A DNA stretch of 64,000 nucleotides from the NCBI GenBank assembly GCA_964276515.1, contig OZ193910.1, positions 5,518,001 through 5,582,000 on the forward strand. Reading direction: 5' to 3'. The stretch comes from Gordius albopunctatus. Taxonomy: Eukaryota. Below, piece by piece: positions 23,775 through 63,069 of the stretch. The number at the start of each line of letters is the position of its first letter. Positions within the stretch are counted from its first letter, which is position 1. The notes beneath the pieces are model-generated. The model was not told the origin of the DNA. It did not search any database and saw only the letters and a program-made list of their open reading frames with translations. The position numbers and the translations under genes were made by a program.

Positions 23775-26338
23775 ATTTGTTAATTTTTTTAGCCCAAACA
23801 AACTTCTTTAATTCTTAAAGATATTACAAATGTCAATATTCCCTCACACCAGGTATCATGATTATATCATAAATTTATATTAAGTTTTATTTTAAATTAA
23901 TATTTGAATAATTTTAAAATAATATATATATTTGTTAATTTTTTTCTAGCCCAAACAAACTTCTTTAATTCAAAAATATGCTACAAATGTCAATATTCCC
24001 TCACATCAGGTTTATCTATGATTTGTTTAGAATGAGTAAAATCTATTTTAGCCTTGTTATCTCTACCCTTACATTTTCATAAATATAAGTTTATATATAT
24101 AACATTTATTTATTTAATTAGTCAATTGTCGTGTCCCCCAGGTTAACTTCTTTAAAAAGTCCAAATCCAAGTACCTTTTTATTTATGATTCTTATACTTT
24201 ATTAATTTTTTAAGTAAATAATGTTCATACATATAGTAAGAGGTTACCAGCTTTAGACATAGGAAAGAGAAAAGACAGGATATTAAAACAATATAAAAAA
24301 ACTGTTAAAAATTTAAGAAAAAAAGTATACTATCAAACTAAGAAAATTAAAACACTAAAAGAATGTGCTCGTCATCTTGAGAACAAAGCACTAATTCCAG
24401 GAGAGGGGGGGGTGATATTATCACAAATTATTTTGGTGATACCCCTCTCACTTCTATACTAAAGACACATTTAAGCTCTGGTGGTATAAATAATCCCTTC
24501 AACAAGGCCTATCCTGATGAAATGAAACAGTTTGCTATAACCCTTTTTTATTACTCACCCAAAGCTTACAAATACATGAGAACTATATTTTGCATGCCAA
24601 CTCCAAGCACAATTAGGAAGTGGTGCCTTAATGAAAACATAAAGCCAGGTAATACAACTTGGCAAATTCTATGTTTAAACTTTGTATAAAATTGTTTAAA
24701 ACCCTATTTTTTACCTTAATATTTATATTTTAGGCTTTTTAAAAGTGGCTTTTGATATACTAAAAGAATTACAAAAGAATCAAGATCCATTATATATATC
24801 TCTTACATTTGATGAAATGGCAATAAGACGTCATCTTGATTATAAAAAAGGCTTAGAAGGGTAACAATGAATTTAATTTTTCTTATAATATGTTTAAGGT
24901 GTGTAGATGTGGGCCAAGGGGTAGCATCAGAATTACTGCCTGAGGCAAAAAGCGCCTTGTTTATAATGGCAGTTGCCATAAATAGTCATTGGAAAATTCC
25001 CCTTGGGTATTTTCTAGTTGGTTGTGTTACTGCAGATTTACAAGTGGCTCTAATAAGAGACACATTAGAGCTACTTAAAGATTGTAGAATAATATGCAAA
25101 AACATAACCTGTGATGAACTTGCAGCTAACAAGAGGACAGCTGAAAGTTTAGGGGTATGCAGTATATTTAAATAACTTATTTTTTATTGTTTGTTTCATA
25201 ACATTAAGACTTAATTAAATTTGATTTTGAATAATATTCAGATTTCTTATTTAATGTATTTATTTGATAGCGTTATATTGGTGTATTTTTTTACCTCAAT
25301 TTTTTATCATGTCACTGTTGCACCACTAAATTTGCCTTTATTTTAATGCTCAACAGTTTCCTATATATATCTATGATTTCAACAGGTATCCTTTGAGGTT
25401 GATATATATATATATTTAGAGAATTGAATGGAACTATATTGTGAAGTTGTATAATTTACAACAACAGGAAGGGCTAAGGGCAGCAAATTAACTGACCAAA
25501 GCATACGTTTTTTACCATAATCAAAAGATGAAGGTTTATTTTACATAACCTTTACTAAAACCAGTTAAAGGTAAAATTAGCGGCCCAGCTATTTTCGGAA
25601 TCCGTGGCTAATGCTCTGGAGTTTGCCAGGGAAAGAGATCCTGACGCATTTAGGGATTGCCAACCAACCATTGAATTTATTCTTATAATGAATCAGTAGC
25701 TTGAAAAATTTGTTGCTAAGTTATTTTTAAAACTTTTTGACACCTTTAATTCACGGAATATTCTTCATAAAGGAAACAAAAAACCTTTGTACAAGGATGG
25801 TTTGGATAATTTAAATGAGTTCTACAATAACTGTGCAAAATATTTTAAATCCTTAAGTCTTCCAGATGGAAGACTTGTTCTCCATTCCAATAAAAAAATG
25901 GGAATTTTAGGATTGTTGGTAGATATGCAGGCTATACAACTTCTGGCACAAGATCTTTTGATTAAGACAAAGCCTCCTTTAAAGTAAATTTATCCTTTAT
26001 TTCTACTATCTCTGATTATTTAGATATTTATTGACCTATAAGCTATCTCAGGATCGCCTTGAAAGTTTCTTTGGCTTAATCAGGGCCCGAGGCATCTGGG
26101 GAAAGGGTTAAGCCCTTTCTCCAGATCCCCTGGTTTCGCTATCGTTCTACCAGGGGCGTTTATTTATCTATCCTTATGTAATATTATAATAACGTAGAGC
26201 GAAAAAATTTTTGGGTAAGATAGCGACGGTAAATGAGAAGGGGGCAGTAAGCGTGTAAGCGTGGGACAATAAAATGGCGAGAAAAGAAAATCGTGCGAAT
26301 GATGTTATGGTCTTGGGACGCGCTTATATAAGGCACGG

Positions 26339-28384
26339 TCACGTGACTGGGGGATTTGTTCGGTTTTCCCCTTCGTCGGACCCAAAATTTTCGCTTTCCC
26401 AAAAACCCAGGTCTATTTCTGCTTCTAGGTCCTCTTCTTCGGGTATATCGAACGATGCTTCATCGAAGGTGGTGTTTCGATCTTTAGGCATCCAGAGCCG
26501 TGATGGCTCGTCCGCTGGGTTGAGCTCGGTGGAGACCCATTCGAGGTTGAAGTGGAGGCGGAGGAGGTGTTCGACGCCGCTTGTTGCCACAAAACTCGCT
26601 ATGATTTTCTCTACTATCGGAGAGTTGGACCCTCCTTTCTTTAGTACGTAGTACGCCGTCGTAGAGTCCGTAATCACCTTTGGGTATCGTGCTCCGTTCT
26701 GAGGTGCCGTGAGGTACGCATAGATTTCAGCCAGTGTTTCTGCCGCCGTTATGTGGTTGGAGTTGACCCAGTCCAACCCGATCGCATCAGCTGCTTGTTC
26801 GAAGGATACTGAGAACTTTATGCCTTCCCAAGATATGCCGAGGTGAGTGTCGGAGGCGTCCGCGTAGATTGCCGTGTCGTGTTCCTCGTATAGTGGGATG
26901 ACTGAATCGAGAATTGCCAGACATCCTGCCAGTTTGTTTTGGGCTAGTGGTCTATCGTGTGTTGTACCGTTCCCCGTTGAGACCGCGTAAAAGGTGGTAA
27001 AGAGCTTGGACATGCCCGTAAGATTGTAGAAGAAGTAGTTCATGACTCCCAGCGCTTCTAGCATGCTATAGTCTTTTGGTGGTGTGTTGCTGGATAGGAA
27101 CCAATAGAGTATGTCGGCCGCGTATGTAAGTCTTTCTTTCGTTTTCTCCGAGACGGTGATTGCGTGTGTTTCGAAGTTTATTTCTAACCCTAGGTAGCTC
27201 AGTTGTTTTTCGGGCATGAAGGATGATTTTGCCAGGTTAATTGTTAACCCCCAGTCCTTGGCCATGCCTGCCAGTTCCCCTAGGTCGGTTGCTACATCGT
27301 CCTCGTTCTCAGCAAAGATGAGAATGTCGTCCAAGTAGACGTTATAGTGGCATCTCTTGACTGAGGTTTTGACGAGGTCAGCCACGATGGTTTGTAGTAC
27401 GTATGGGCTGAAGGAGGCCCCCATTGGCAATACGTTGTATTGATAAAGTTTCCCTCTCCATTTATAGCCGCAGTACTTCTTATAGTTCTTGTGTAGTGGT
27501 ATGCTGAAGAAGGCTGCCTTGAGGTCAACCTTGGCTGCGTAGTTGGCCTTGGCTAGAGATTTTGCCGTCAGTGGGATGGTAGCCAGCTTTACCGGGAGAT
27601 GCCTGAAGTTTCTTGAAGCTTCAGATAGGTCGGTAATCACCCTGGCGTCCCCATTGCTTTTAGCTATGAAGAAGGTTGAGGACGTGACCGCGAGCGCTTG
27701 CGTCTCGGAAACAACGTCTTCTTCTTTCATAGTAGTAAAAAAGCTAGGCGTGCCTTTTGATATTCGTTTCCATCTATCGGGCTTGAACAAGCCGCCATTT
27801 TGCCTTATTTTGGGCAAGTCAAGTGGGGGTTTGAAGCCTTCGAATGCCACCTTGAGCGTAAACTCTGACATCAGCGGGTGTGGTGTGAGTCGCGTCGTTT
27901 TTATGTCGAGTTTTCCGGTTGGCTTCTGGGTCGCGTTGGTTTTCCCCCACTTGAAGATCGCTTTGTGCTGATCGATGAGGCTTGGTATTGCTGCCGAGCC
28001 TTCGTCCCCGTTAGTGGGGCTATTGGTAGGGTTTACTCGATTCCCTACTTCTGGTGGAGGCGGAGGTGGCTCCGGCGGAGTGTTGTCATCGTCGTCGTTG
28101 GAGTTGTCAGGTGAAGGGGAGAAGAGCTGCTGACGACGAGTTTCCTTTAGGAAATCTTTGATTTTCCGCCACCAGTCCGGTGTTTTGTGGCTCTTGTCCC
28201 CCCTGAGAGTCGGTTCGCCATTAGGCCCGTACTCCCAGTTGTTCACTGTTTGCTTCAAGAGTTTACGAACGCGGGGCAGGGGCCGCGTTCTTCTTGAAGT
28301 GTCGGCCCGGCTTGCTGCCTCGGCCCCTGCCAGCGCTTGGAAAAAACGATTTCTTGGGAGATTTCGGCGCGGCCACTTCAACAT
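26339..28384 (-). CDS. Reverse transcriptase-RNase H (P/pol ORF, 681 aa, intact)
   Basis: RT motifs FFIAK..RVITDLS, KVDLKAAFFSIPL, LPMGASFSP, YLDD, GLTIN..KS, YLG; RNase H motifs YADAS, HITAAETLA, TDST, WVSTELNPADEPSR. Confidence 0.93.
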   Translation of the reverse strand: MLKWPRRNLPRNRFFQALAGAEAASRADTSRRTRPLPRVRKLLKQTVNNWEYGPNGEPTLRGDKSHKTPDWWRKIKDFLKETRRQQLFSPSPDNSNDDDDNTPPEPPPPPPEVGNRVNPTNSPTNGDEGSAAIPSLIDQHKAIFKWGKTNATQKPTGKLDIKTTRLTPHPLMSEFTLKVAFEGFKPPLDLPKIRQNGGLFKPDRWKRISKGTPSFFTTMKEEDVVSETQALAVTSSTFFIAKSNGDARVITDLSEASRNFRHLPVKLATIPLTAKSLAKANYAAKVDLKAAFFSIPLHKNYKKYCGYKWRGKLYQYNVLPMGASFSPYVLQTIVADLVKTSVKRCHYNVYLDDILIFAENEDDVATDLGELAGMAKDWGLTINLAKSSFMPEKQLSYLGLEINFETHAITVSEKTKERLTYAADILYWFLSSNTPPKDYSMLEALGVMNYFFYNLTGMSKLFTTFYAVSTGNGTTHDRPLAQNKLAGCLAILDSVIPLYEEHDTAIYADASDTHLGISWEGIKFSVSFEQAADAIGLDWVNSNHITAAETLAEIYAYLTAPQNGARYPKVITDSTTAYYVLKKGGSNSPIVEKIIASFVATSGVEHLLRLHFNLEWVSTELNPADEPSRLWMPKDRNTTFDEASFDIPEEEDLEAEIDLGFWESENFGSDEGENRTNPPVT

Positions 28385-28703
28385 TCTGGAAGCCCATGTC
28401 AGAGAGCCACGTAGTGTCGGCCCGTATAGCTGTGGCCCAGTTAAATTTTATCGCTAGGCATAATGTTTTTAGCTGTTTATCGTGTGCTGTCAGCACTTCT
28501 ATTGGCGACGCAGGCGTGTACACTTGGGACATGAGTATAGCGTATTTAGCCTCATGCCTTTCCCTCTTTTGGACCCTCAGGTTTGGGTCTGTTAGCAGCT
28601 CGCTGAGCCCCTGTGTGTGTTTCACAATATCCTCGCAGATAGCTGCCGGGGTTTTCGGCTGTTCTGGGGCTGGTACGATTTGTACTGTAGAAGGCATTTG
28701 CAT
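28263..28703 (-). CDS. Small capsid/gag-like ORF (146 aa) with basic C-terminus, overlapping the pol start
   Basis: Lies upstream of pol and overlaps it by 122 nt in another frame; tail PKSPKKSFFPSAGRGRGSKPGRHFKK. Function is inferred from position and composition only. Confidence 0.6.
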   Translation of the reverse strand: MQMPSTVQIVPAPEQPKTPAAICEDIVKHTQGLSELLTDPNLRVQKRERHEAKYAILMSQVYTPASPIEVLTAHDKQLKTLCLAIKFNWATAIRADTTWLSDMGFQNVEVAAPKSPKKSFFPSAGRGRGSKPGRHFKKNAAPAPRS

Positions 28704-28801
28704 TGGTGGCGGCGTTACTTGTGGTGGTTCGTGCCTTGCTAGCGAGGAGTTGAGCGATCAAATCCGTTGTGCCCGCACCGGGAACCCCTGGTCTAACAGG
28801 G

Positions 28802-29001
28802 NNNNNNNNNNNNNNNNNNNNNNNNNNNNNNNNNNNNNNNNNNNNNNNNNNNNNNNNNNNNNNNNNNNNNNNNNNNNNNNNNNNNNNNNNNNNNNNNNNN
28901 NNNNNNNNNNNNNNNNNNNNNNNNNNNNNNNNNNNNNNNNNNNNNNNNNNNNNNNNNNNNNNNNNNNNNNNNNNNNNNNNNNNNNNNNNNNNNNNNNNNN
29001 N
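28802..29001. other. Assembly gap (200 N)
   Basis: Run of N. Flanks 28131-28801 and 29002-29672 appear identical (offset 871), suggesting overlapping contig ends. Confidence 0.95.
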
Positions 29002-29133
29002 TGACGACGAGTTTCCTTTAGGAAATCTTTGATTTTCCGCCACCAGTCCGGTGTTTTGTGGCTCTTGTCCCCCCTGAGAGTCGGTTCGCCATTAGGCCCG
29101 TACTCCCAGTTGTTCACTGTTTGCTTCAAGAGT

Positions 29134-29574
29134 TTACGAACGCGGGGCAGGGGCCGCGTTCTTCTTGAAGTGTCGGCCCGGCTTGCTGCCTCGGCCCCTG
29201 CCAGCGCTTGGAAAAAACGATTTCTTGGGAGATTTCGGCGCGGCCACTTCAACATTCTGGAAGCCCATGTCAGAGAGCCACGTAGTGTCGGCCCGTATAG
29301 CTGTGGCCCAGTTAAATTTTATCGCTAGGCATAATGTTTTTAGCTGTTTATCGTGTGCTGTCAGCACTTCTATTGGCGACGCAGGCGTGTACACTTGGGA
29401 CATGAGTATAGCGTATTTAGCCTCATGCCTTTCCCTCTTTTGGACCCTCAGGTTTGGGTCTGTTAGCAGCTCGCTGAGCCCCTGTGTGTGTTTCACAATA
29501 TCCTCGCAGATAGCTGCCGGGGTTTTCGGCTGTTCTGGGGCTGGTACGATTTGTACTGTAGAAGGCATTTGCAT
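29134..29574 (-). CDS. Second assembled copy of the capsid/gag-like ORF (probably redundant across the gap)
   Basis: Translation identical to 28263-28703. Confidence 0.45.
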   Translation of the reverse strand: MQMPSTVQIVPAPEQPKTPAAICEDIVKHTQGLSELLTDPNLRVQKRERHEAKYAILMSQVYTPASPIEVLTAHDKQLKTLCLAIKFNWATAIRADTTWLSDMGFQNVEVAAPKSPKKSFFPSAGRGRGSKPGRHFKKNAAPAPRS

Positions 29575-29734
29575 TGGTGGCGGCGTTACTTGTGGTGGTT
29601 CGTGCCTTGCTAGCGAGGAGTTGAGCGATCAAATCCGTTGTGCCCGCACCGGGAACCCCTGGTCTAACAGGGCTCAACGGAGGACTGCTCATCTGTTCCC
29701 CTTGTGTGTTTCTCGTAGGTCGCGGGTTGGTCAT
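29423..29734 (-). CDS. Upstream small ORF (103 aa, MTNPRPTR...) of the retroelement
   Basis: First ATG after the 5' direct repeat; overlaps the capsid-like ORF in another frame. Confidence 0.4.
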   Translation of the reverse strand: MTNPRPTRNTQGEQMSSPPLSPVRPGVPGAGTTDLIAQLLASKARTTTSNAATNANAFYSTNRTSPRTAENPGSYLRGYCETHTGAQRAANRPKPEGPKEGKA

Positions 29735-29779
29735 CTTTCTTGGGGGAAAAAAGGTGGACAACAAAATTTTTGGGTAAGA

Positions 29780-31590
29780 TAAAGGAAACTCGTCGTCAGC
29801 AGCTCTTCTCCCCTTCACCTGACAACTCCAACGACGACGATGACAACACTCCGCCGGAGCCACCTCCGCCTCCACCAGAAGTAGGGAATCGAGTAAACCC
29901 TACCAATAGCCCCACTAACGGGGACGAAGGCTCGGCAGCAATACCAAGCCTCATCGATCAGCACAAAGCGATCTTCAAGTGGGGGAAAACCAACGCGACC
30001 CAGAAGCCAACCGGAAAACTCGACATAAAAACGACGCGACTCACACCACACCCGCTGATGTCAGAGTTTACGCTCAAGGTGGCATTCGAAGGCTTCAAAC
30101 CCCCACTTGACTTGCCCAAAATAAGGCAAAATGGCGGCTTGTTCAAGCCCGATAGATGGAAACGAATATCAAAAGGCACGCCGAGCTTTTTTACTACTAT
30201 GAAAGAAGAGGACGTTGTTTCCGAGACGCAAGCGCTCGCGGTCACGTCCTCAACCTTCTTCATAGCTAAAAGCAATGGGGACGCCAGGGTGATTACCGAC
30301 CTATCTGAAGCTTCAAGAAACTTCAGGCATCTCCCGGTAAAGCTGGCTACCATCCCACTGACGGCAAAATCTCTAGCCAAGGCCAACTACGCAGCCAAGG
30401 TTGACCTCAAGGCAGCCTTCTTCAGCATACTACTACACAAGAACTATAAGAAGTACTGCGGCTATAAATGGAGAGGGAAACTTTATCAATACAACGTATT
30501 GCCAATGGGGGCCTCCTTCAGCCCATACGTACTACAAACCATCGTGGCTGACCTCGTCAAAACCTCAGTCAAGAGATGCCACTATAACGTCTACTTGGAC
30601 GACATTCTCATCTTTGCTGAGAACGAGGACGATGTAGCAACCGACCTAGGGGAACTGGCAGGCATGGCCAAGGACTGGGGGTTAACAATTAACCCGGCAA
30701 AATCATCCTTCATGCCCGAAAAACAACTGAGCTACCTAGGGTTAGAAATAAACTTCGAAACACACGCAATCACCGTCTCGGAGAAAACGAAAGAAAGACT
30801 TACATACGCGGCCGACATACTCTATTGGTTCCTATCCAGCAACACACCACCAAAAGACTATAGGATGCTAGAAGCGCTGGGAGTCATGAACTACTTCTTC
30901 TACAATCTTACGGGCATGTCCAAGCTCTTTACCACCTTTTACGCGGTCTCAACGGGGAACGGTACAACACACGATAGACCACTAGCCCAAAACAAACTGG
31001 CAGGATGTCTGGCAATTCTCGATTCAGTCATCCCACTATACGAGGAACACGACACGGCAATCTACGCGGACGCCTCCGACACTCACCTCGGCATATCTTG
31101 GGAAGGCATAAAGTTCTCAGTATCCTTCGAACAAGCAGCTGATGCGATCGGGTTGGACTGGGTCAACTCCAACCACATAACGGCGGCAGAAACACTGGCT
31201 GAAATCTATGCGTACCTCACGGCACCTCAGAACGGAGCACGATACCCAAAGGTGATTACGGACTCTACGACGGCGTACTACGTACTAAAGAAAGGAGGGT
31301 CCAACTCTCCGATAGTAGAGAAAATCATAGCGAGTTTTGTGGCAACAAGCGGCGTCGAACACCTCCTCCGCCTCCACTTCAACCTCGAATGGGTCTCCAC
31401 CGAGCTCAACCCAGCGGACGAGCCATCACGGCTCTGGATGCCTAAAGATCGAAACACCACCTTCGATGAAGCATCGTTCGATATACCCGAAGAAGAGGAC
31501 CTAGAAGCAGAAATAGACCTGGGTTTTTGGGAAAGCGAAAATTTTGGGTCCGACGAAGGGGAAAACCGAACAAATCCCCCAGTCACGTGA
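29780..31590 (+). CDS. 5'-truncated inverted copy of RT-RNase H
   Basis: Same protein from KETRRQQ onward with three visible amino-acid changes (IPLH/ILLH, INLAK/INPAK, DYSM/DYRM) plus silent changes, so it is a distinct copy. Confidence 0.88.
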
Positions 31591-31632
31591 CCGTGCCTTA
31601 TATAAGCGCGTCCCAAGACCATAACATCATTC
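31582..31632 (+). promoter_or_regulatory. Putative Pol II core promoter downstream of pol: E-box, TATA and Inr
   Basis: GTCACGTGAC (31582-31591), TATATAAG (31599-31606), TCATTC matching Inr TCAKTY with its A (31629) exactly 30 nt after the first T of the TATA. Mirrored in the minus copy at ~26297-26347. Confidence 0.55.
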
Positions 31633-31772
31633 GCTCGATTTTCTTTTCTCGCCATTTTATTGTCCCACGCTTACACGCTTACTGCCCCCTTCTCATTTAC
31701 CGTCGCTATCTTACCCAAAAATTTTTTCGCTCTACGTTATTATAATATTACATAAGGATAGATAAATAAACG

Positions 31773-31835
31773 CCCCTGGTAGAACGATAGCGAAACCAGG
31801 GAATCTGGAGAAAGGGCTTAACCCTTTCCCCAGAT
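31773..31835 (+). other. Tandem 3'-terminal hairpins of the retroelement
   Basis: CCCCTGGT-n14-ACCAGGG(G/A) followed directly by ATCTGGAGAAAGGG-CTTAA-CCCTTTCCCCAGAT; also at 26094-26156 (minus) and 32081-32142; AATAAA at 31765-31770. Confidence 0.85.
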
Positions 31836-33200
31836 AAAAACATTATGCCTAGCGATAAAATTTAACTGGGCCACAGATATACGGGCCGACACTACGTGGC
31901 TATCTGACATGGGCTTCCAGAATGTTGAAGTGGCCGCGCCGAAATCTCCCATTTCTCGCCATTTCATTGTCCCACGCTTACACGCTTACTGCCCCCTTCT
32001 CATTTACCGTCGCTATCTTACCCAAAAATTTTTTTCGCTCTACGTTATTATAATATTACATAAGGATAGATAAATAAACGCCCCTGGTAGAACGATAGCG
32101 AAACCAGGGGATCTGGAGAAAGGGCTTAACCCTTTCCCCAGAGTTTGAACAAAATTTTTATAACTAAAATTTATTACTCCTACTCTGGTAATTGTTCTCC
32201 CCAGGATTATACTCGCATTGCCGATGCAAGTTTTTGTCAGCTAAATCAAGAATACAATGATGAAGAAGACATGAACAACTATGATATTAACATTATAAAC
32301 ATTTCACCTTACATTAATTGTGTAACAACTTATATTGGAGGTTACATTGTTGGGCAAATGATTGAATGTAAAAAAGTAACATGTAAGACCTGTATTATAT
32401 TTTTAGATCAATTATTAATTAATATAAAAAACAAAGGTGGGTTGGTTGTCCCGTCCCCTGATGTAATTAAGGTTTGTAAAAATACTGAAAGTATATATAG
32501 GCTTTTTAAACAAACAAATCAAATTTTTTCTAAAAAAACACTATTTTTAATTGAAATAAAAGTTTTTTATTCATTAATTGGCTCTAATATATTTTCATCA
32601 TTAGTTAATCATATCGTTGATCAGGAATTAGGTTCATTAAATCATTTACAATTATTAGTTAAGTTAATAATTAATATGTATACCAAAATTTTACTCCATA
32701 ATTTTTGTAATATTTCAAACCAAGAGTTTAAAACTAATCTTAGGCAAAAACTGAATAAGGCCGTTATTTTTAAGGGGCAATAATTACATGGATTGACAAT
32801 TGATTAATTTGTTAATATGATTTTACATGTGAAAATTTACATGATGCCCTTTATTGTTTAATGTAAAATTGTAACTTAGAATATATTATAATTTTTGTAA
32901 ATAAAATATACTATAGATGGCGCTAATGTTTCTGGTACGTATACTACTATATTTCCTAAAATATAAAGAAATTCTAGACAATTTTAACTATTTCTAATGT
33001 AGTTCTAATTTATTCGTATATAAACATAGGTTTTACTTTTTGTTTGGGCTTTTGTAAGCTTATATTAGCTTGATATAAATTTATAAAATAAATATTAAAA
33101 TCCAGCGAAATAAATAGCGCACATAGCGCTTTAATAATCATCATACCTGATGTGAGGGAACATATACATATATTTGTTAATTTTTTTCAAGCCCAAACAA

Positions 33201-33912
33201 CTGATGTGAGGGAATATTGACATTTTAATATCTTTCGAAATTAAAGAAGTTTGTTTGGGCTAGAAAAAAATTAACAAATATATGTATTATTTTAAAATTA
33301 TTCAAATATTAATTTAAAATAAAACTTAATATAAATTTATGATATAATCATGATACCTGATGTGAGGGAATATTGACATTTGTAATATCTTTCAGAAATA
33401 AAGAAGTTTGTTTGGGCTAAAAAAATTAACAAATATATGTAATATTGTTCATTTAAATTATGTAAAACAAAGTATTTATTAAAAACAAAGCATATAAAGA
33501 TATTCATTAAAATAACGATAAAATAATTTGATTACTTGATCCAAATTTAATGTTAGTACAGAATCTTCCCTCAAAAAGTGCCTTTTATATGAATAAAAAT
33601 CTTTTTTGGCAAAATGTTTGCCACATATAAAGGATGTTTTCTTTAGGTGAAAATCTGGACCCATAATTAAAAGACATTTTTTTTAAATTTCAGGATTTTT
33701 TTAGGAAATCTATAAAAAAAAATATATAGCAATTTAAAAAATACTTACCTATGGAAGGATGTGTCTCCATTTTTATTCTTATAAACACTTGTGCAATTTT
33801 TTATTTCACAAGTGCGCATATTGGTGGGCTAAAGTAATGGCGGCCTGAGTTGCTAAATAAATTTCAATGCAAAGATCAGCTGTTCGGCAGTCTATAGTTT
33901 TATTAGTCTATG
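33201..33912 (-). repeat. ~710-bp inverted copy of the THAP9 element's left end, without the Gypsy insertion
   Basis: Reverse complement matches 18304-18785 joined to 23780-24009 with a single ATTTG; includes THAP exons (CGKHF). Confidence 0.9.
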
Positions 33913-35320: not shown

Positions 35321-36951
35321 CAAGCGCGTAGGGAAGGGGGGGGGGTTTCGGGTTTGAACCCCCCCCCCCCCTCCTGGATATTATTTTTTTTCAAAACACA
35401 ACACAAAATTATTGACAACGCAAAATTATTGATAATCATGATTATAATTAATTTAGCTAGTGTCAAGTGCTGCGTTTATATTTATATATATATATATATA
35501 TGTTAAAAAATTAAGTCGACAAGTTAATAAATTTTGAATTTCGGAATTTGTATTTTTGATTAAAAGCTTCCAAAGTGATCTTATTTGTAAATTTAAGTTC
35601 CGCACCTTATTATGAAGCGATATTCCATTTATACATACTTCCCTAAAAAGAGTAACATTTGCATTTCTGAGGAGAAAGATACAAATAGTCTTGTCAAAAA
35701 AATCACTGATTTTATATCAACCCCCAAAAGATTTAATCTTTTCACTTCTAAAGTATTGTCATTGTCGGATAACCCTAAATTCACAAAATTAATATCACTG
35801 TGTGAAACTAGATGGACACAAAAGCACAATTCTGTTCAAAAATTCTGTGAAGCGAAGGAAGCAATATTTGCTACCTTGGAGGAGATGTGTGAATGGGACG
35901 ATGAAGAATCATCGTCCAATGCGGCGATTTTGCTTTCATCATTAAGGACATCCAACTTTTGGCTGTCATTGTACATGCTAAATCAAATTTTCTCTTACAC
36001 TATTAATCTTAGCAATTATTTGCAAAGGATTAATATAGACCTTTCTCAGGCCATAAATGCAGCCGAAAATGCGTTTATACAGATTCAACATTTGCGGGAA
36101 AATTCCCAAGACGAATTTAGAACAATCTACAATGATGTCTCGTCACTAGGAGATATATATGATTTCAAAATTACTATTCCTAGGAGAGCCTCACGACAAA
36201 CTCTTCGTTCAAACATTGAAACATCTTGTCCAGAAACTTATTAGAGTTTCGTTGCATAACTCCTTTTTAGATGCGGTTTTGGTGGAACTTGATGAAAGGT
36301 TTCTAAAAAACAAGATACTGTTGGGATTTGATTCCCTTCTAATTAAGTTCCCTGTCATGCTCTCAACAGAGATATTAAATAACTTTCTTCAATTGGCAAA
36401 TTTTTATGTAACAATTCAAATCTGATATTAAATTGTGGTATCAGTCGTTCAAGGACTGTGAATTAGAGAATTTGCCTACCAATGCTGCATTGGAAACATT
36501 AACCAATCATGCGTCCAAATTAAAATTACATCCAAATATAAAAACATTATACCATATTTTAGCCACACTCACCGTTACAACATGCTCTAATGAGAGATGT
36601 TTTTCAGCTTTAAAAAGACTAAAAACTTACCTCAGGAACACAATGGGACAATAAAGGTAAATTAAATGGTTTTACTAATTTTTAATTTAGGCTTACTGGA
36701 TTAACCTTGTTAAATGTACATAGACAATATACCCCCAAAACAGAAGATATTATTAATGCATTTTTATCTAAAAATCGTCGATATTAATTGTTTATAGTTT
36801 TTAAATATTTTGTTATATTATAATTTATTTTTGTTGTATTTTTACTTTACTTTCAATAATATATGTCGAAAATAAAATTACTTCCAAAAAAATATGGCTT
36901 CAAAAATTTTAACCCCCCCGCCCCCTCTAGCAAATCCTGGCTACGCCCTTG
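35321..36951 (+). mobile_element. hAT transposon (ZMYM1/Tip100-like transposase remnant), internally deleted
   Basis: Perfect 8-bp TSD caatacac; imperfect TIR caagcgcgtag / ctacgcccttg; motifs LCETRW, LSNYLQ, TVTTCSNERCFSALKRLKTYLRNTM; frameshifts. Confidence 0.9.
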
Positions 36952-37270: not shown

Positions 37271-38672
37271 TTACTCAAATAATTTAGCTTTAATCATTAA
37301 TTTCATTTTGCATAGTACACGCGGGTTAGATGGGATATACAATAACGGATTAATTAGAGGTCTTATTAATGTAAGGCTGTCGGCGAAACGAATGAAATAG
37401 TAATATATGCCTGTTCTGGAGTCTAGACTTAGTCTACAAGTTTGACGTATTATTAATACTACTGCGACTGACTCAGGGATGATAGTTAATAAATACAGAA
37501 ATACCGCTATTAATAAAATGTAAGTAAGTCTGGTATCTTCTTTCCTTGTAACAAAACATTTTAGGCTTGAAGTGAAACAGTGACGCATACTACCTTTTTT
37601 AGTTTTTAAATCCTTGTCTAATTTATCTGTGCTATGCTTTTTTGTAATTTGTTGAAATTTCGTCACAACATTTTTTGCTTCTGATCGTGCCTTTAAGGTG
37701 CTTTGCAAACTTTCACTCGTCACGGGTTTTATTGTATTCCGAGATTGAAGCAAAACCTTAGCTGAACTGAAGGAAAGGGGCAATCGGCAAAATGACCTAG
37801 GAACAGAAACTAATTTTTTAATAATGTAAATACTGAGAAGAGTAAATTTTATAGTTGGGATGGCGCAGCAAATCAATTCTCTCGAAATGATAAAGATTTT
37901 TAGACCCATTGAAAGGTAAGTTTCGATTGAAGTACGGCATTTGCTTGTTAGTTCGCTTTAAAGAGTTTTCCATCATTAATGCAAGATTTTTTGAAAAGGG
38001 CTTACAATTGACATTGTGTGCCTTTAGTTAAATGGAATGTGGTAGTCCTTGAAATAAAACGGTCGTACTATTAGTAGCTGTGAGAATATTAGTGAATGCC
38101 AAATTAAAAATGTAATGATTATTATTTGAGCGGTTATTTAAATTACATATACTGAAGACTCTCTGTATCTTATAGTTGTCGTGTTTCTTAATGTCGTAAT
38201 AACGGGTAATACCAACCGTTGGCTCGTACAAATAAGCTAGAAAAGAGATTCCAGAAACAAATAAGGGCATATATTTGAAAGCCTTAGACTGACACCACGT
38301 CATATAAAAACAAGGTTTGCAAACGAATATGTATCTATCAAAACACAGAATCAGTAGATTCAGAATAGAGCATTTCATGAAGCCATTGCGAAGGGGAAAG
38401 CCTATTTTTGATAAAAATAAATTCCAGGTGCAACTTTGGATGTATGATGCCTTTAATAGATAACCCAATTTGTTCATTAATGCCCAAAATATTCCAAACA
38501 CCAAGGTCAAAATATCACCGAAGCATATGTATCGGAGGAGATGATAAGATTTAGAGCGCCATTGGAATTTAAGGAGCATATATAAAGCAATTAAATTACA
38601 CAAAATTCCCACAAAGATTATTAAGGAAAGTATTATTAAAATGCCCACTAAATGAAAAGTAAATTGGGCCAT
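37271..38672 (-). pseudogene. Rhodopsin-family GPCR, split by a stop and a frame change in ECL2 (pseudogene or spliced gene)
   Basis: TM1 GILCNLI, TM2 D (FGDIL), DRY (CFDRYIFVCKP), TM6 TIIPE, TM7 INPLLY; two ORFs in different frames (38028-38672 and 37271-37909). Confidence 0.65.
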
Positions 38673-40552
38673 AATTGAACTAAATTAGCGATTAATCAAT
38701 GTATAATTTAGGTTAGAAAATTTAATTTTTTCGACAAAAAACGATTCATTTATTCATAGTGACAGATTGTGAAGGTAGCTGTTAGTTGATTAAATATTTA
38801 GAAGCTTAGTCACCTACTTTACGCATATTAGCCTATTTGTTGTAATCAAATATAATAAGGATTTTTTTGGTGATAAATAAAATGAGTCAGATTAATTTTG
38901 TGGATTTTTATTGCCTATTGTTAAAACCCCCTTTACTTTTGTAAAATTAAGACTATTAACTATGAATAAATTAGCATGAATGAAACTCATTATTGAAATT
39001 TACCTTTCCTTTATATGAGCACGGGAAATTATCTATCTAATTATTTTAGAGTTCTAGAGAAAAAGAAATTATAAATATTAATAAACAAGTCTTTATAAAT
39101 GATTTATAGATAAAAATTTAGAATAAATGTGTCATCTTTAAAACTATAGCTAACATCTAAATATTACACTATGGGTAGAAATTTGGCACGGGATAAATAA
39201 AAAAATTATCTAGCTTAATTTTAAAAAACTGATTTTTCGTATTAGCATGAGCTATAATGCAAATGGAAAACACTAGTTAGAAAGTTTAGACAAAAAATCA
39301 ACGCATGAAGAAGAGAAAAAATGAATATTGCCAAGGGACTAAAAATCTCATTTTTAACAAAACGCTGTTATCGAAGCTTTAAACAAAGCTTGATTGATAT
39401 AAAATGAAACAGTGCTATCAAATTATGGCGAAAAAATTGATAATGCATTCTCCTAAGACACCCGAAGTGCTCCGTGGTAATATAAAATAGTTTTAGAATT
39501 TTAAAGTACGCTATTCAAATTTATGGGATGTTATTTATTAAGCTAAACTCTATAAATATATCATATCTTAACGGTTAAAATTTAAGTATTAAAAGGAAAA
39601 AACTAGATGAAATGCTCAAGAGCTTGGCCTGGCAATTAGCAATACCCCCCTAATAAAGAATTACGCACGAAAGCAAATCAAGTTGCACAATTTTATCTCT
39701 ATCAACATCAACACTCCGCAATCAAATGCATCCTATTGAGCGCATATTTGATCTCTAAAAGGCTGTTAGTAATGGACTTCATATAAGAGGTGATAAAAGG
39801 CCGAAAGCCTTAAGTAATTAAATGAAGGCTCAACGAAAATGTCCAACAATTGCAGGAAGATTTTAAGAAATCCTTTAATTTAGGAATAGTGCTTCAGTCA
39901 TGCCAGCACAAACCAAAACTGTGCATACATCTACTTCAAATTAACATTTTTTGCAAGATTTACTTTGAATCACATTTGAAATGTGAGAGGGGTTTACGGT
40001 GTATCGTGCTAAATATATTTTAGGAGGCCGATTGCTAAAAATGTTGATTGACAAATCATGCTTAATACAAACACGCACCAATTGTCTTTTATATTACAAA
40101 ATTTTCAAAAATTACTATGTATAAAAGTATTTATATAATAATGACGCGCGCTACATGCTTATTGCGTTAAATAAAACATCAAAATTGATACGATATCATT
40201 AAATCTAGGGACTAAGAAGCTACAAAAAATTCTATACATCGCTTCAAAAGTAAAAAAAACCATTATTAGATATATACATAAATTGGATTACAAAATTATT
40301 TTATAATATAAACTTTTTTACACGCACACACGTAAACTATATTATGCTAGAAAGTAGAGATTATTCGATCCCTCCAGTAATTACTATTAAAGGGTCATTC
40401 AATATAGGTTGACAAGAAGGGGAAGGAATTCATGATAATTTACCATTTCAAATTGGTAAATGGGATTTTTTATCGTGGATATGGGAGTAATGCAAAAAAA
40501 GTGCATAGAACCCTAAAAAAATAAAAGAGGGGGGGGGAGAGAGTTTGGAATT

Positions 40553-43500
40553 TTAATCGTTGAGAGTATCGGAGGCAGCTGTGATTGTATAAGACAAGAC
40601 TGCGACGTGCTTTTTGATGAGTTCGATCAAAGCGTCCAAAGCATCACTTCGGAGCGCGTTATGGTGAACCGGTTTATGCACGTTATTGACGGAAGGATCT
40701 TCGAAATCGAGTTCGTGCGCGATAAAAGTATAATCCAACGCCTTGACCAAGCCTTCGTTATGACTCGTGAGTGAGGGGGCATTCAGGGTTGAATAGTGAT
40801 CGGTCTTTAGGTCGAGTTGGGTGAAGATGTATTGATTGGTGTACATACGAGACTTGAGGATGTAAAGGAGGTCGGAGAGGGCTGGAAATCCGGTGCCGTT
40901 GTAAAAATTGAAGAGGGAAGGAGCTAAGAGTAAATGCTTGTACCAAGGCCGACCCGGGAGTCCGTTGGTGTCGAGAAAGGCGCGCTCCAACTGCATGAGC
41001 TTGTCATTGTAAAGGCGTACTCTTACGGGGTCCGTCTTGTCCAGTTCGATTTGTGTGGCACGGACGAACCCGTCGGCTTGCAGGGTGAAGGTCTGAATTG
41101 CTTCTCTCAAGATCGCTTTAATATTTGGCAAAATACATGTAACATTTTGATTTTTACCGAGAAAAAGATTTTCTTTTAAGAGTCATTTTGAACTTTATCA
41201 ATATTTATATTGGCAGCTGGGAGTTTAATTAACAATGGAATAATTTCGAACAATGTTAAATTACATATACTTATATATATATAAACTATTACACCTACCC
41301 ATACCCCCTTTAAGGGGCAAGCTCCTTTTATCAAGCTACTAACAATTCAAAAAATTGGAATATGCTGGATTAAATCATATATTAAAATTATACAATTATG
41401 TTTGTTAGCATAGAATAGATGACAAAACTTAAATGCAAAAGATCGATGTGCAAAGAATTATTTTCAGTGTACTGAAACAAGTATAAGATTTGTATGCGTT
41501 TAAATTACCATAAATGTTATACTATTCCTAAAATGATGCATGAAAAGAAGTATCGGACTACTTTGCATATAATGCCACCAACAATTACTCAGCTACAAAA
41601 TTACGAATTTAAAGGTGTAGAATTGCTTCTCAATTTCTCCCCTAAAACGTAATCCTCAAGTTTATTTAATGTTTTATAAAGATCTTCAGACATTGAAAAT
41701 CCGTTTAGCATTATCAAAAAATCATGGCAAAAGTGTCATACACAAGGAGATGCCGTGTTGCTTTAACGTATCTCCGTAGTTTTTTTCGATCGTATCCAAG
41801 TATGCGTGCATGGCTTTGGCGTAATAGTCCAAACTGAAAGGCAGCATGTAGGAATCAACAAGTAGACGGGCTAGCTCGGCCCAGTACTGGGATATGGCTT
41901 TGTGGTATACGAAGGTGGGATCTATGAAGGTGGACACTTGGCGATAGGTATCGTGAATCGAATGGTACAATGGGTAGGAAGCTATTTTCATTTCATCCTA
42001 GATTATGATTTTTTACAAAATACAAGGTTTATTGACATATATATATGGGTATATTTAAGTATTTTAAAATGGTACAGTTATAAAATGTTGATATAACAAC
42101 AAATTGCATTTTAGTAGTATAATAGGACCTCATCTTCCATTTTTAACATATAGGCTAAAAATATTCTATTGCAATTAAGCAAATAATTTTTCGGATAAAA
42201 ATGCTAGGAAATATTTAAAGGAGATGAATGTTTACCTACGCCTCTAAAAAAATTCTCAAAAAACTAAAAGGATATAAAGAGTTAATTGTAACAGATTCTT
42301 TTGCATAGTTATAAAATAATGCACCTTAACTTTTTTAAACTAATAAAATATTTTATAAAGCAAATTTTATTCTCACTCATGGGTCTATAGCAAGTTAATA
42401 TAAACTAAAATTATTTAGGAGTGAAATTAATGCACGAGTCACCCGTTAGGATTAAAAAAAGTAAATCACAATCGGTTTATGCGAGAAAATAAAAAAATCA
42501 ATTTAGGTTTGAAAAAATTGTATTTAATAATAATCAAACGAGCAAGACATACGCTTTTTAATGTATATAATGTAGCATGCTTTATTTTAAATTATTTATA
42601 TAGGAAAATTAGTAAAATAGAATATTTAAGAGCCAAGGCTATAATCCTACAAAAGGTTTATATAACACTGGTCAACAAATAATGGACTTGTGAAATTAAC
42701 CTGCGAACTATTTGCAGATTCTGGTAGAGTATTTCACGGTGAACACAAATATGTTTTTTTGTTTTTTCCCTATACGTCAAGTTTTTTAAATATTCGCTGT
42801 CAAAGTTGCTAAAAACGCGATCTTAGCGTTTTTCAAACGTCAATAACTTGCAAATTAATCGGTAAAAATTTTATTTAATAGATTTAATACGTAGATATAG
42901 GGGAGAGGAATGTATTTACAATTTTTTTATCGTAGCACTTTTACTTTTTAAATTATATACAAAATTAATTATCCCTACTACCTTTTACATTGACAAATTA
43001 CCCCAGACTTCTCTTCAAAACTAGGAATTAAGTGAGTGTTGTTGTTTTGGTAATAGTAGTAGTAGAGTAGATAAACAACAACACAAACAACAACACGCAC
43101 TTAATTCCCAGTGTTGAAGAGAAGGGAGGGCGCCCTCAAGTCTGCTGTAATTTGTCAATGTAAAAGATAGTAGGGATAATTAATTTTGTATATAATTTAA
43201 AAAGTAAAAGTGCTACGATAAAAAAATTGTAAATACATTCCTCTCCCCTATATCTACGTATTAAATCTATTAAATAAAATTTTTACCGACTAATTTGCAA
43301 GTTATTGACGTTTGAAAAACGCTAAGATCACGTTTTTGGCAACTTTGACAGCGAATATTTAAAAAACTTGACGTATAGGTAAAAAACTAAAAACATATTT
43401 GTGTTCACCGTGAAAAACTCTACCAGAATCTGCAAACAGTTTGCCGGTTAATTTTTCTTGTTGAACCGTGTAATTAATCCTATTTACAATGAAGAAAAAG

Positions 43501-61949: not shown

Positions 61950-62317
61950 CTTCTTTCTTTCTTTATCAGTTATTTTGTCCCACATTGGCGGGGTTTGTTT
62001 TGATAAGTTTCTTCCATCTTTACCGGGTGAGTGCCATGTCTTGACTAATCTCTTTAGTTTCCATAACTTTATCGACTTGCCCTTTCCACGTGACACGGGG
62101 TCGTCCCTCTTCCTCTCTTCCCCGGTACCTCCATGTCCAATACTTTTCTATTTACGTCATCCGTATCCCTCCTTAGTATATGACCATACCACCTTAGCCG
62201 ATTTTCGTTAATCACGTCCGCCATAGATTGAATACCCATTTTTGTCATAAAAATGTCATTCGTCATATGGTCGAGCTTAGTATACTCCAAGCTCCACCGT
62301 ATCATTCTCATGGTCAA
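61950..62317 (-). mobile_element. RTE-like LINE 3' fragment
   Basis: MRMIRW....KLDHMTN...RLRWYGHILRR...PGKRGRG is typical of the RTE C-terminus. Confidence 0.75.
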
Positions 62318-62329
62318 ATTCTACTCTTG

Positions 62330-63069
62330 CTCGGTGATATGGCGCTCACGTCAACTGACGCTCCAGACGCGTTTGAGGATTTTCAAAGTCACGTTCCTAC
62401 CAATCCTCCTATACGGTTGCGAATCTTGGTCGCTGAAGGCTCCTAGCTTAAAGAAACTGCAAGTCAGTCTTAATAAAATGCTACGTATCGTTTGCCGGAT
62501 ATTTTATCCGTTGAGAATAACCAACGAGGATCTATGGGTGCGTTGCAAAATCGCTCCAATTAAAAATATTCTACTCGCGAGAAAATGGGGTTTTTTGGCT
62601 CATCAAGTGCGGAGGAAGGGAACCAACTACTGTCTATCTTCCCTGTTCTGGTGTCCACCTCAGCTAAAAGGTCGCAAATGCAATGGCAGCTGGCTTTACA
62701 AGGTGTTCCGCGATGTCCAAACAATGGTCCATGATTGGAATTCATTGCTGCCCATCATGCAAGACAGGAAACGTTGGAAAGACTTCTCAAAGAACAAATT
62801 ATTACGGCTCCCCCAGTAAGGATCTTCTCACACACTATTCATTTACGACCTTGCATTAAAGGCTTTACATTACTTTCAAGTCAACAGGTATTACATATTT
62901 ACATGTCATAATTACACTGCATGTTAATCATTTTTTTACAGCCTACTTACACACGTTATCACTAACGTGGCCTGATGCGCCATTTGGCGTTAGAAGGGGC
63001 TCAACCTTATATTGCACTAACTAAGCTCTTGGGCGTCTTCGCGGCAAACTTACTTACTTACTTACTTAC
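62330..63069 (+). mobile_element. 5'-truncated RTE-like LINE with (CTTA)n tail
   Basis: TRLRIFKVTFLPILLYGCESW...LRIVCRIFYPLRITNEDL...W..LAH..R...QDRKRW; tandem ttac repeats at 63049-63069. Confidence 0.8.

What the first reader, a model, noticed from the sequence alone, without database searches (positions are those of the whole stretch)
26094..29780. Compact ~2.8-kb retroelement with DIRS/hepadnavirus-like RT-RNase H and no integration enzyme
Seen: after removing the redundancy across the gap the unit is ~2816 bp, much more GC-rich than the host, and has only small ORF(s), a basic-tailed 146-aa ORF, an overlapping intact 681-aa RT-RNase H and a ~245-bp 3' tail. The frames shown contain no tyrosine recombinase, methyltransferase, DDE integrase, APE/RLE/GIY-YIG endonuclease or protease, and there is no room for one after pol. 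Knowledge: RVITDLSEASR, DLKAAFFSIPLH, LPMGASFSPYVL, HITAAETLA and LNPADEPSR recall hepatitis B polymerase (RLVVDFSQFSR, DVSAAFYHIPLH, IPMGVGLSPFLL, IHTAELLA, LNPADDPSR). The pre-RT segment and TDSTT..KGGS.S recall DIRS RT/RNase H. Size and the core-overlapping-pol layout resemble envelope-less nackednaviruses. Inference: a recombinase-less DIRS relative or hepadna-like retroelement/endogenised pararetrovirus, possibly an undescribed lineage. It should be compared with the published hepadnavirus-like HEART elements.
Basis: partly seen in the sequence, partly recalled or inferred. Interest (0 to 1): 0.93.

Follow-up and report, generated by a model that had tools for sequence, protein, structure and literature searches.

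The report
Integrase-free retroelement related to hepatitis B
A small (about 2.8 kb) repeated element in an animal genome encodes an intact reverse transcriptase-RNase H that groups with hepatitis B-type viruses in our trees, carries no recognisable integration enzyme, and likely spreads by being copied into broken chromosome ends, which would make it a testable model for that virus family's poorly understood retroelement relatives.

Summary
There is an intact 681-aa RT-RNase H, two small overlapping ORFs, a 245-bp tail, 50% GC against 32% in the host, and no recombinase, integrase, methyltransferase, endonuclease or protease. The unit is one part of a 6-kb compound insert (head-to-head copies plus fragments) inside a P-element transposase. 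It has no target duplication, and three 3' ends coincide at a terminal hairpin. Its 5' end is a rearrangement junction, so 2.8 kb is a minimum. Public contigs show a diverse multi-copy family with a conserved 35-nt block near the 5' end. The only close proteins (36-43%) come from the horsehair worm Gordionus. RT, RNase H and joined trees group the element with hepadnaviruses and compact RT-RH proteins, apart from methyltransferase-bearing DIRS (AU p=0.005). No terminal protein or core is detectable, and the RT lacks Blubervirales signatures. So it is a HEART-grade retroelement, not shown to be a virus. Named HEART, Ngaro, VIPER and nackednavirus sequences could not be put in the trees, so a recombinase-bearing parent is not excluded. 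Likely mechanism: integrase-free insertion at DNA breaks (about 50%).

The parts
26094..28801 (-). Main copy, 3' part (tail, pol, ORF2, part of ORF1), up to the assembly gap
29002..29781 (-). 5' part of the main copy; 29002-29672 repeats 28131-28801 exactly (likely scaffold overlap across the 200-N gap)
26339..28384 (-). pol ORF, 681 aa: about 85-aa basic N-terminus, Pro/Asp linker, RT (YLDD at 350), thumb, RNase H (D509, E549, D573, D625), acidic tail; no methyltransferase
28263..28703 (-). ORF2, 146 aa, basic Arg/Gly/Lys tail, overlaps pol; coding (18 of 21 listed variant places at codon position 3); candidate gag/core, no homolog found
29423..29734 (-). ORF1, 103 aa, overlaps ORF2 in another frame; contigs of X2 break off exactly behind its ATG
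29642..29676 (-). 35-nt block shared by many otherwise divergent contigs; folds as the upper part of a stem-bulge-stem (epsilon-like position and shape; fold z only -1.5)
29763..29781 (-). 19-nt exact repeat of 26204-26222; either a true terminal repeat or filler at the rearrangement junction
26297..26330 (-). TATA-like box (26323-26330) and initiator-like motif (26297-26302) about 30 nt apart, just behind the pol stop; motif labels recalled, untested
26094..26164 (-). AATAAA (26159-26164) followed by two hairpins (26127-26157, 26094-26126); the element's 3' end is the base of the last hairpin; fold z -5.6
29780..31835 (+). Second copy, 5'-truncated, head-to-head with the first; 7 differences in 2056 nt (5 in pol: 2 silent, 3 replacing)
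31831..31951 (+). 121-nt internal fragment (ORF2/pol overlap region), 97.5% identical
31952..32142 (+). 191-nt 3'-tail fragment forming the right end of the insert
24867..26093 (+). Left part of the interrupted host P-element/THAP9-type transposase (PF21787)
32143..32783 (+). Right part of the same transposase (THAP9_C, E 3e-4)

Best explanation
This is a compact retroelement with an intact RT-RNase H that groups with hepadnaviruses, encodes no integration enzyme in this copy, and likely multiplies by having its RNA reverse-transcribed from a fixed 3' hairpin and the cDNA captured at chromosome breaks by host repair. Shown: the gene content, the tree position, a multi-copy family, three 3' ends at one point, no target duplication, and truncated and inverted pieces meeting inside the insert. 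Inferred: a Pol II RNA is made and ORF2 (perhaps with ORF1) coats it. The terminal hairpin marks where DNA synthesis starts, and the conserved 5' stem-loop is a packaging or RT-binding signal. At this locus both ends of one break received an element 3' end, and the truncated cDNAs were joined in the middle. Whether the broken DNA end primes synthesis or a finished cDNA is ligated is not resolved.
For: Phylogeny. RT+RH: the query and 3 Gordionus proteins lie in a starred clade with 10 hepadnaviruses and 7 compact RT-RH proteins (100/99; 56 rows, 396 columns). It is 100/99 again under the C20 mixture model (32 rows). RT alone gives 98/94 (46 rows) and 98/98; RNase H alone gives SH-aLRT 96 (quick tree). 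The AU test rejects query+Gordionus+8 MT-bearing DIRS as one clade (p=0.005). No YR or MT. The two long Gordionus relatives show RVT_1 only in Pfam; one stops right after RNase H and the other after an acidic tail like this one. Family: 712 and 299 contigs of two runs lay on 25200-28801 (which includes 900 nt of P-element flank), with 266/197/249 and 65/91/143 at 99+/95-99/90-95% identity. Only 3% and 8% run on unlike, and 8 internal skip or inversion joints are listed. ORF2 is under purifying selection (18 of 21, p=1e-6). Ends: three 3' ends agree within 1 nt at the hairpin base, both outer ends are 3' ends, and there is no target duplication. Two inner joints are seen in X1 contigs. Target deletion and a role in break repair are hallmarks of endonuclease-independent L1 insertions (PMC1920257, abstract).
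Against: The mechanism rests on one locus, and one compound insert may be an atypical event of an element that normally inserts otherwise. Microhomology is weak: none at the left junction against the one empty-site contig, 4 of 5 nt, 2 nt, at least 1 nt and 0 at the others. The promoter-like motifs lie at the 3' end and would drive the ORFs only from a circular or tandem form, which was not seen. The 5' 40 nt (29740-29779) are covered only by the junction contig in X1 and by nothing in X2, so the real 5' end is unknown. Adding a long-branch protein with a WYDN active site (P0220, VIPER-like by recalled motif) puts it in the same group and lowers RT+RH support to 94/86, so kinship with hepadnaviruses does not by itself exclude a recombinase-bearing family. 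The branches are long (path to the nearest non-Gordionus row 2.2-3.3 changes per site). Foldseek ranks caulimovirus RTs above HBV P by E-value. The ESM Atlas's top clusters are commonest in Euglenozoa, where VIPER/TATE live (taxa known for 3 members).
Confidence: 0.5

Rival explanations
1. It is an endogenised, envelope-less pararetrovirus (pre-Blubervirales grade) that replicates through a circular DNA and an epsilon-like stem-loop with protein priming. The genomic copies are accidental captures of linear viral DNA.
For: The size is near the nackednavirus range of 2,766-3,105 bp, and small ORFs precede a core-like ORF that overlaps P (PMC5604429, passages). A conserved stem-bulge-stem lies near the 5' end inside a small ORF. 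A TATA/initiator-like pair behind the pol stop and a 19-nt repeat at both ends would make sense on a circle. One HBV P model aligns over 420 columns at 4.8 A, the lowest rmsd among the listed rows of 400 or more columns. Summed depth peaks at 28225-28345, the pol N-terminus that holds Tyr52.
Against: No TP or core signal: scores were -2.1 and -1.3 bits, within the shuffles, and Pfam found none. The RT motifs differ from all PnNV, nackedna and hepadna rows read. The stem-loop's energy is not above chance (21 of 200 shuffles as good). The 3' hairpins lie outside a circle closed at the 19-nt repeat. Two other HBV P models gave rmsd 19 and 24 A. IMG/VR holds no relative. Many divergent genomic copies fit a resident element.
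Confidence: 0.2
2. It belongs to a tyrosine-recombinase retrotransposon family (VIPER/TATE-like or Ngaro-like, without methyltransferase). The recombinase lies beyond the truncated 5' end, has been lost, or is supplied in trans.
For: The 5' end is a rearrangement junction. VIPER-like RNase H groups with hepadnaviruses in print (PMC6681497, passages and section 6), and P0220 joins the same group here. The Atlas lead points to Euglenozoa clusters. A gag with a basic tail overlapping RT-RH is the usual DIRS layout (recalled). A 3' hairpin has been suggested as the DIRS primer (PMC7192593, passages).
Against: In VIPER the YR lies between gag and RT; here ORF2 overlaps pol directly, and only 245 nt follow pol. 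There are no inverted termini, no internal complementary region (longest complement 8-10 nt) and no A1-B1-A2-B2 repeats. None of the listed loose ends marks a long insertion between RNase H and the tail (12 shown, 114 not shown). The Ngaro motifs HYLDD and K.(E/V)GP seen are absent.
Confidence: 0.22
3. The element is real, but the compound head-to-head arrangement is an assembly or amplification chimera, so the junctions say nothing about how it inserts.
For: An N gap with a 671-nt perfect overlap lies inside the locus. The two inner joints were seen only in X1, which may be the source sample. The two outer junctions are not among the listed bridging contigs.
Against: The two copies differ at 7 of 2056 sites, unlike a fold-back of one molecule. 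The head-to-head joint is spanned by a 121-nt contig with 0 differences at depth 459, and the 26284-28355 joint has depth 823. The flanks are the two consecutive halves of one transposase.
Confidence: 0.08

Closest known systems
HEART (hepadnavirus-like retroelements; Gong and Han 2018, not held; known here from PMC12691608, PMC11551314, PMC12440569)
   Same: Invertebrate genomic RT on the hepadnavirus side of the tree, outside Blubervirales. Mobilisation is 'not yet resolved' (PMC12440569, passage). By eye the RT shares K/R-VDL..AF and P(F/Y)VMQ/VLQ-type motifs with the 7 Ixodes HEART rows.
   Different: The Ixodes HEART rows have HLDN/YIDN at the active site and LPFG; this one has an intact YLDD and LPMG. 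It sits in another host group, with intact ORFs, young copies and a defined 3' end. It could not be placed in one tree with HEART.
Nackednaviruses and proto-nackednaviruses (Blubervirales)
   Same: About 2.8 kb, small ORFs, a basic-tailed ORF overlapping an RT-RNase H, no envelope, no integrase, and a 5' stem-bulge-stem. The RT and RNase H group with hepadnaviruses.
   Different: No detectable terminal protein or core, no YMDD, no DR1/DR2 pair in the canonical places, no evidence of a circle or of particles. Present as many chromosomal copies.
DIRS-like retrotransposons
   Same: Most of the best non-Gordionus sequence hits (22-36%) are DIRS-type. Shared features are the pre-RT segment, the longer RNase H with a HI(N/T)..E motif and KGGS, an overlapping gag-like ORF and a 3' hairpin.
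   Different: No YR, no methyltransferase, no inverted terminal repeats, no ICR. A clade with MT-bearing DIRS is rejected (AU p=0.005).
VIPER/TATE and Ngaro (YR elements without methyltransferase)
   Same: RT-RH without MT; the VIPER RNase H is also hepadna-related.
   Different: No YR ORF between gag and pol or behind pol, no split direct repeats, and different active-site motifs.
Endonuclease-independent L1 insertions (works-like comparison only)
   Same: Target deletion and insertion at breaks; the absence of a target duplication is recalled for these insertions.
   Different: The enzyme is of the LTR/hepadna class with RNase H, there is no endonuclease gene at all, and no poly(A) tail at the outer junctions.

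Membership tests
DIRS-like (YR retrotransposons) | Tyrosine recombinase ORF | tested here: not met
   No Pfam hit, no other sense frame over 164 aa in 26091-28801, 245 nt behind pol. Sequence upstream of 29781 is unknown.
DIRS-like (YR retrotransposons) | Methyltransferase behind RNase H | tested here: not met
   pol ends about 50 aa after RNase H; no Dam hit in the query or the Gordionus relatives, whereas many other hits have one
DIRS-like (YR retrotransposons) | Inverted terminal repeats plus internal complementary region | tested here: not met
   Longest complement of either end inside the unit is 8-10 nt. The 2-kb inverted repeat is a second copy, not an ITR. The 5' end is uncertain.
DIRS-like (YR retrotransposons) | RT-RH nests among DIRS | tested here: not met
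   AU p=0.005 against a clade with 8 Dam-bearing rows. The rows are unnamed and labelled DIRS by their Pfam Dam hit.
Ngaro / PAT / VIPER-like | Split direct repeats A1...B1-A2-B2 | tested here: inconclusive
   Only a 19-nt A-type repeat and no B repeat, but the 5' end is a rearrangement junction
Ngaro / PAT / VIPER-like | RT-RH clade membership | not testable with these tools
   No named references among stored proteins. One unnamed WYDN protein (P0220) fell in the same broad group on a very long branch.
Blubervirales (hepadna-, nackedna-, proto-nackednaviruses) | Terminal-protein domain with priming Tyr (GLY motif) | tested here: not met
   No PF00242 hit; a TP profile from 18 hepadnavirus P proteins scores -2.1 bits, shuffles up to 0.7. 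Very remote homology is not excluded; the N-terminus is unmodelled (pLDDT under 70).
Blubervirales (hepadna-, nackedna-, proto-nackednaviruses) | HBV-like core protein | tested here: inconclusive
   Core profile scores -1.3/-2.0 bits; no homolog; Atlas hits under 0.9; no structure model of ORF2 was made
Blubervirales (hepadna-, nackedna-, proto-nackednaviruses) | RT signature (YMDD, RLVV(D/N), SLD, RK/RM.PMG) | tested here: not met
   The query has VYLDD, RVITD, KVD, NVLPMG; compared by eye with supplement rows
Blubervirales (hepadna-, nackedna-, proto-nackednaviruses) | Epsilon stem-bulge-stem near the RNA 5' end | tested here: inconclusive
   Shape and position fit and the block is conserved; z -1.5; no Rfam match; no covariation test possible
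Blubervirales (hepadna-, nackedna-, proto-nackednaviruses) | Circular episomal genome with DR1/DR2 | not testable with these tools
   No raw reads; neither stretch laid held both ends, so a circle joint could not have shown
HEART | RT sister to Blubervirales, outside DIRS and Ortervirales | tested here: met
   same position, as a grade; order inside the group is unresolved (AU p=0.12 for an exclusive pair with hepadnaviruses)
HEART | Clusters with published HEART1/HEART2 sequences | not testable with these tools
   HEART sequences were visible only in a supplement and were not among stored proteins; the 2018 paper is not held
LTR retrotransposons / Kuafuorterviruses | Two LTRs, protease, DDE integrase | tested here: not met
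   None in the unit. Kuafuorterviruses have paired LTRs (PMC11673190, first third read).

The most novel reading that the evidence does not exclude
This is a living member of a widespread, unnamed class of roughly 3-kb integrase-free retroelements (small gag-like ORF plus RT-RNase H only) from which hepatitis B-type viruses arose. It already uses an epsilon-like 5' stem-loop but predates the terminal protein, starts DNA synthesis at a 3' hairpin, and colonises genomes only through DNA breaks.
Probability: 0.3. Interest if true: 0.92.

Novelty: new variant of a known kind. Interest (0 to 1): 0.76.

Why it matters
The origin of hepadnaviral protein-primed reverse transcription is open. The accepted model derives these viruses from invertebrate HEART retroelements (PMC12691608), whose mobilisation is unresolved and whose few known copies are often mutated at conserved residues (PMC12440569). 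This locus gives an intact, young member of that grade with a defined 3' end, a conserved 5' RNA element and a readable insertion scar. One can therefore ask directly what primes its RT and whether an epsilon-like signal came before the terminal protein. If the family truly lacks any integration enzyme, it is also a mode of retroelement spread that current classes (LTR, YR, LINE, PLE) do not cover for this type of RT. The searches also turned up several unnamed RT-RH proteins of the same grade in public assemblies, so the group may be broad.

Tried and rejected
No whole genome is held, so no copy census was possible. No RNA holder was listed, which says nothing on expression. The single-sequence AlphaFold model of pol was unusable (pLDDT 35). 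The alignment-based model is good for residues about 160-632 only, and its alignment is mostly DIRS-type rows. Word-based protein searches gave only 22-30% gypsy- and DIRS-type hits, nothing for ORF2 and no HEART or nackednavirus. IMG/VR scans for relatives or for the 35-nt block found nothing, nor did the phage collection or Rfam. Earlier findings of the scan: none. A ribozyme in the tail was rejected (no Rfam match). An intron joining ORF1 to ORF2 was considered and dropped, because variants across that stretch fall on ORF2 third positions. Pairing of the 5' block with the 3' hairpin (-38 kcal/mol) is matched or beaten by 3 of 66 windows of the element, so it is not used. A 4-nt microhomology at the left junction, written in early notes, was a miscount and is withdrawn (note). 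Short contig length of the compact relatives (1.4-3.6 kb) is not evidence that they lack a recombinase, since MT-bearing rows sit on contigs of similar size. ORF1 and ORF2 show no similarity to the small ORFs of L033. L034 and L035 are ordinary gypsy-like elements. No complex prediction was run. Literature: searches found no description of such an element in hairworms. The words 'hepadna' and 'DIRS' do not occur in the Gordionus genome preprint; the comparative preprint says DIRS were detected only in Mermis; 'Gordionus' is absent from the mBio supplements. bioRxiv supplements and the 2018 HEART paper could not be seen and may list related sequences.
Full report
Observation. The region holds a 681-aa ORF (26339-28384, minus), a 146-aa ORF with a basic tail overlapping its start, and a 103-aa ORF further upstream in another frame. 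GC is 0.51 and 0.50 on the two sides of the gap against 0.325 in both flanks. Pfam finds only RVT_1 in the long ORF and nothing in five other ORFs at E<=1. An AlphaFold model from a 110-row alignment (mean pLDDT 78; reliable for about 160-632) shows RT, thumb and RNase H and nothing else. The acidic residues expected for both active sites are present. Only 245 nt follow the stop. The 671 nt on either side of the 200-N gap are identical, which fits a scaffold overlap.

The locus is larger than reported. A second copy runs on the plus strand from 29780 to 31835, head-to-head with the first, truncated at its 5' side, and differing at 7 of 2056 sites. A 121-nt internal fragment and a 191-nt tail fragment follow it. 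The whole 6-kb insert splits a P-element/THAP9-type transposase: PF21787 on the left, THAP9_C on the right. Both outer ends are element 3' ends, and the three 3' ends agree within one base at the foot of a terminal hairpin. That hairpin and its neighbour fold far better than shuffles (z -5.6, 0 of 200). There is no target duplication. From the recalled transposase motif roughly ten codons seem lost, which was not measured. Overlaps at the joints are short: none at the left end against the one empty-site contig listed, 4 of 5 nt, 2 nt, at least 1 nt and none elsewhere. The 5' boundary at 29781 is the joint with the inverted copy, so the true 5' end is unknown, and the 19-nt repeat there may be filler.

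It is a family. Two public runs of one study hold the stretch; one may be the window's source. On 25200-28801, 712 and 299 contigs were laid, spread over 90-100% identity, with 8 listed internal skips or inversions. One of these is the joint seen at 31951/31952, and a 121-nt contig spans the head-to-head joint without a difference. Of the 21 listed variant places in 29419-29581, 18 fall on third codon positions of ORF2 (p=1e-6; 40 of 88 places were shown). In the pol-only part 11 of 20 do (p=0.04; 40 of 176 shown; flank, tail and ORF2 rows left out). A 35-nt block at 29642-29676 stands out. Its summed depth is about 100,000 against about 4,000 beside it, and groups of 4-7 contigs in both runs turn into unlike sequence at each of its edges. 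Divergent relatives thus keep this block at the DNA level. It forms the upper part of a stem-bulge-stem, though its energy is not above chance (z -1.5). Contigs also break off just before the AATAAA that precedes the two 3' hairpins. Depth is no copy number.

Relatives. Of 13,811 representatives at E<=0.001 only 3 reach 1e-30 (36-43% identity; next hit 2e-25). All three are from the horsehair worm Gordionus sp. and lie on chromosome-sized contigs. The window's own genes are animal-like (7tm_1, TFR_dimer), so the host is likely a hairworm; this was not confirmed. The two long relatives have no methyltransferase. Further hits are DIRS-type proteins, many with a Dam-like domain, and a set of unnamed RT-RH proteins that stop after RNase H, five of which hit the hepadnaviral RNase H family PF00336 at E<0.001 (one of the five, P0095, falls with DIRS in the trees). 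One metagenome locus, L033, shows a decayed element of similar layout beside an integrase-like ORF.

Phylogeny. Hepadnavirus references were taken from IMG/VR records. For RT+RNase H the query and the Gordionus proteins form a clade (100/99). It sits with 10 hepadnaviruses and 7 compact proteins (100/99), apart from 14 Dam-bearing rows and 8 gypsy rows. The grouping holds under a site-mixture model (100/99), for RT alone (98/94; 98/98) and for RNase H alone (SH-aLRT 96, quick tree). A clade with the Dam-bearing rows is rejected (p=0.005), while an exclusive pair with hepadnaviruses is neither found nor rejected (p=0.12). There are limits. Rows were subsets (23-56 of about 210 sequences held), the DIRS label is mine from Pfam, branches are long, and no named HEART, Ngaro, PAT, VIPER, nackedna- or proto-nackednavirus was available. 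Adding P0220, VIPER-like by a recalled motif, placed it in the same group and cut support to 94/86. This agrees with the published VIPER-hepadnavirus RNase H link (PMC6681497). Structure search is mixed: one HBV P model fits over 420 columns at 4.8 A, but caulimovirus RTs rank higher and two other HBV P models fit badly.

Not a demonstrated virus. Profiles from 18 terminal-protein regions and 18 core proteins score the N-terminus of pol, ORF1 and ORF2 no better than shuffles. By eye the RT lacks the YMDD, RLVV(D/N) and SLD signatures shared by the PnNV, nackedna and hepadna rows read in the mBio supplements. It also differs from the 7 Ixodes HEART rows at the active site.

How it likely works. 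Shown: gene content, tree position, family, fixed 3' end, insertion scar. Inferred: an RNA coated by ORF2 is copied by Pol starting at the terminal hairpin, and the DNA enters the genome at a break without an enzyme of its own. Here both broken ends took a 3' end, and the truncated products met in the middle. This works like endonuclease-independent L1 insertion (PMC1920257) but with an RT of another class. I put this at 0.5. The epsilon-like block, the promoter-like motifs behind pol and the 19-nt repeat keep an endogenised pararetrovirus alive (0.2). The unknown 5' end and the VIPER link keep a recombinase-bearing parent alive (0.22). A chimeric assembly of the compound locus is unlikely (0.08).

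Papers seen. PMC12691608: parts 1-2 of 3 of the text; supplement 6 part 1 and HEART passages, supplement 4 passages, supplement 10 part 1. PMC11551314: part 1 of 2. PMC11673190: part 1 of 3. PMC6681497: passages and section 6. Passages only: PMC12440569, PMC5604429, PMC8903280, PMC7192593, PMC6282271, PMC12241316, and bioRxiv 2022.02.16.480762, 2023.06.26.546503 and 2024.06.11.598342. PMC1920257: abstract and outline. Gong and Han 2018: not held. TATA, initiator, VIPER active-site and transposase motif labels are recalled.

Verdict. This is a real, intact and apparently undescribed retroelement lineage on the hepadnavirus side of the RT tree, best filed as a new variant of the HEART grade, with membership untested. 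Its value is that it makes the priming and insertion of that grade testable. Interest 0.76.

Noticed in passing
P0044, P0045, P0047/P0193, P0050, P0052/P0196, P0056, P0171: Unnamed RT-RNase H proteins from public assemblies that end after RNase H and group with hepadnaviruses; P0052/P0056 have the most hepadna-like RNase H. Possibly a broad undescribed grade; their contigs could not be fetched.
   Followed up: partly
L033:435-3000: Decayed compact element (small ORFs, one ending in an Arg-Gly-rich tail that overlaps an acidic N-terminal pol frame, then RT) abutting an integrase-like ORF on the other strand (Polinton-type by recalled motifs); groups with P0044 (95/81).
   Followed up: partly
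window 27620-27740 and 28225-28345: Two more peaks of summed contig depth (59,000 and 78,000 in X1) inside pol and the ORF2/pol overlap; they may be further conserved cis elements. Unexplained.
   Followed up: no
window 29574-29634: ORF1 and ORF2 overlap in different frames; third-position variation of ORF2 extends upstream of its first ATG and that ATG itself varies in some contigs, hinting at a frameshift or another start.
   Followed up: partly
window 29655-29673 and 26124-26157: The conserved 5' block and the first 3' hairpin share two short motifs (9 of 10 and 8 nt), as if one were a shortened form of the other.
   Followed up: partly
window 23768-23986 and 33223-33441: 219-nt inverted repeats (94%) with internal subrepeats, likely the ends of the P-type transposon that hosts the insert.
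   Followed up: no
window 19380-22931: Decayed gypsy-type LTR retrotransposon (zinc knuckle, protease-like, RT, RNase H, integrase PF00665) just left of the P element.
   Followed up: no
window 35597-36244, 37271-38684, 40553-45300, 62232-62819: hAT-like transposase fragment (recalled), a broken or split 7TM receptor frame, exons of a PSMA/NAALAD-like peptidase (TFR_dimer), and a LINE C-terminal fragment (recalled).
   Followed up: no
window 54749-55870: Tandem repeat array of a few hundred bases per unit, giving repetitive open frames.
   Followed up: no
rank 1 (A0A3S9H6R8): The best Foldseek hit is an unnamed 634-aa viral protein; its length would suit a nackednavirus P (recalled), but it could not be identified.
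   Followed up: no
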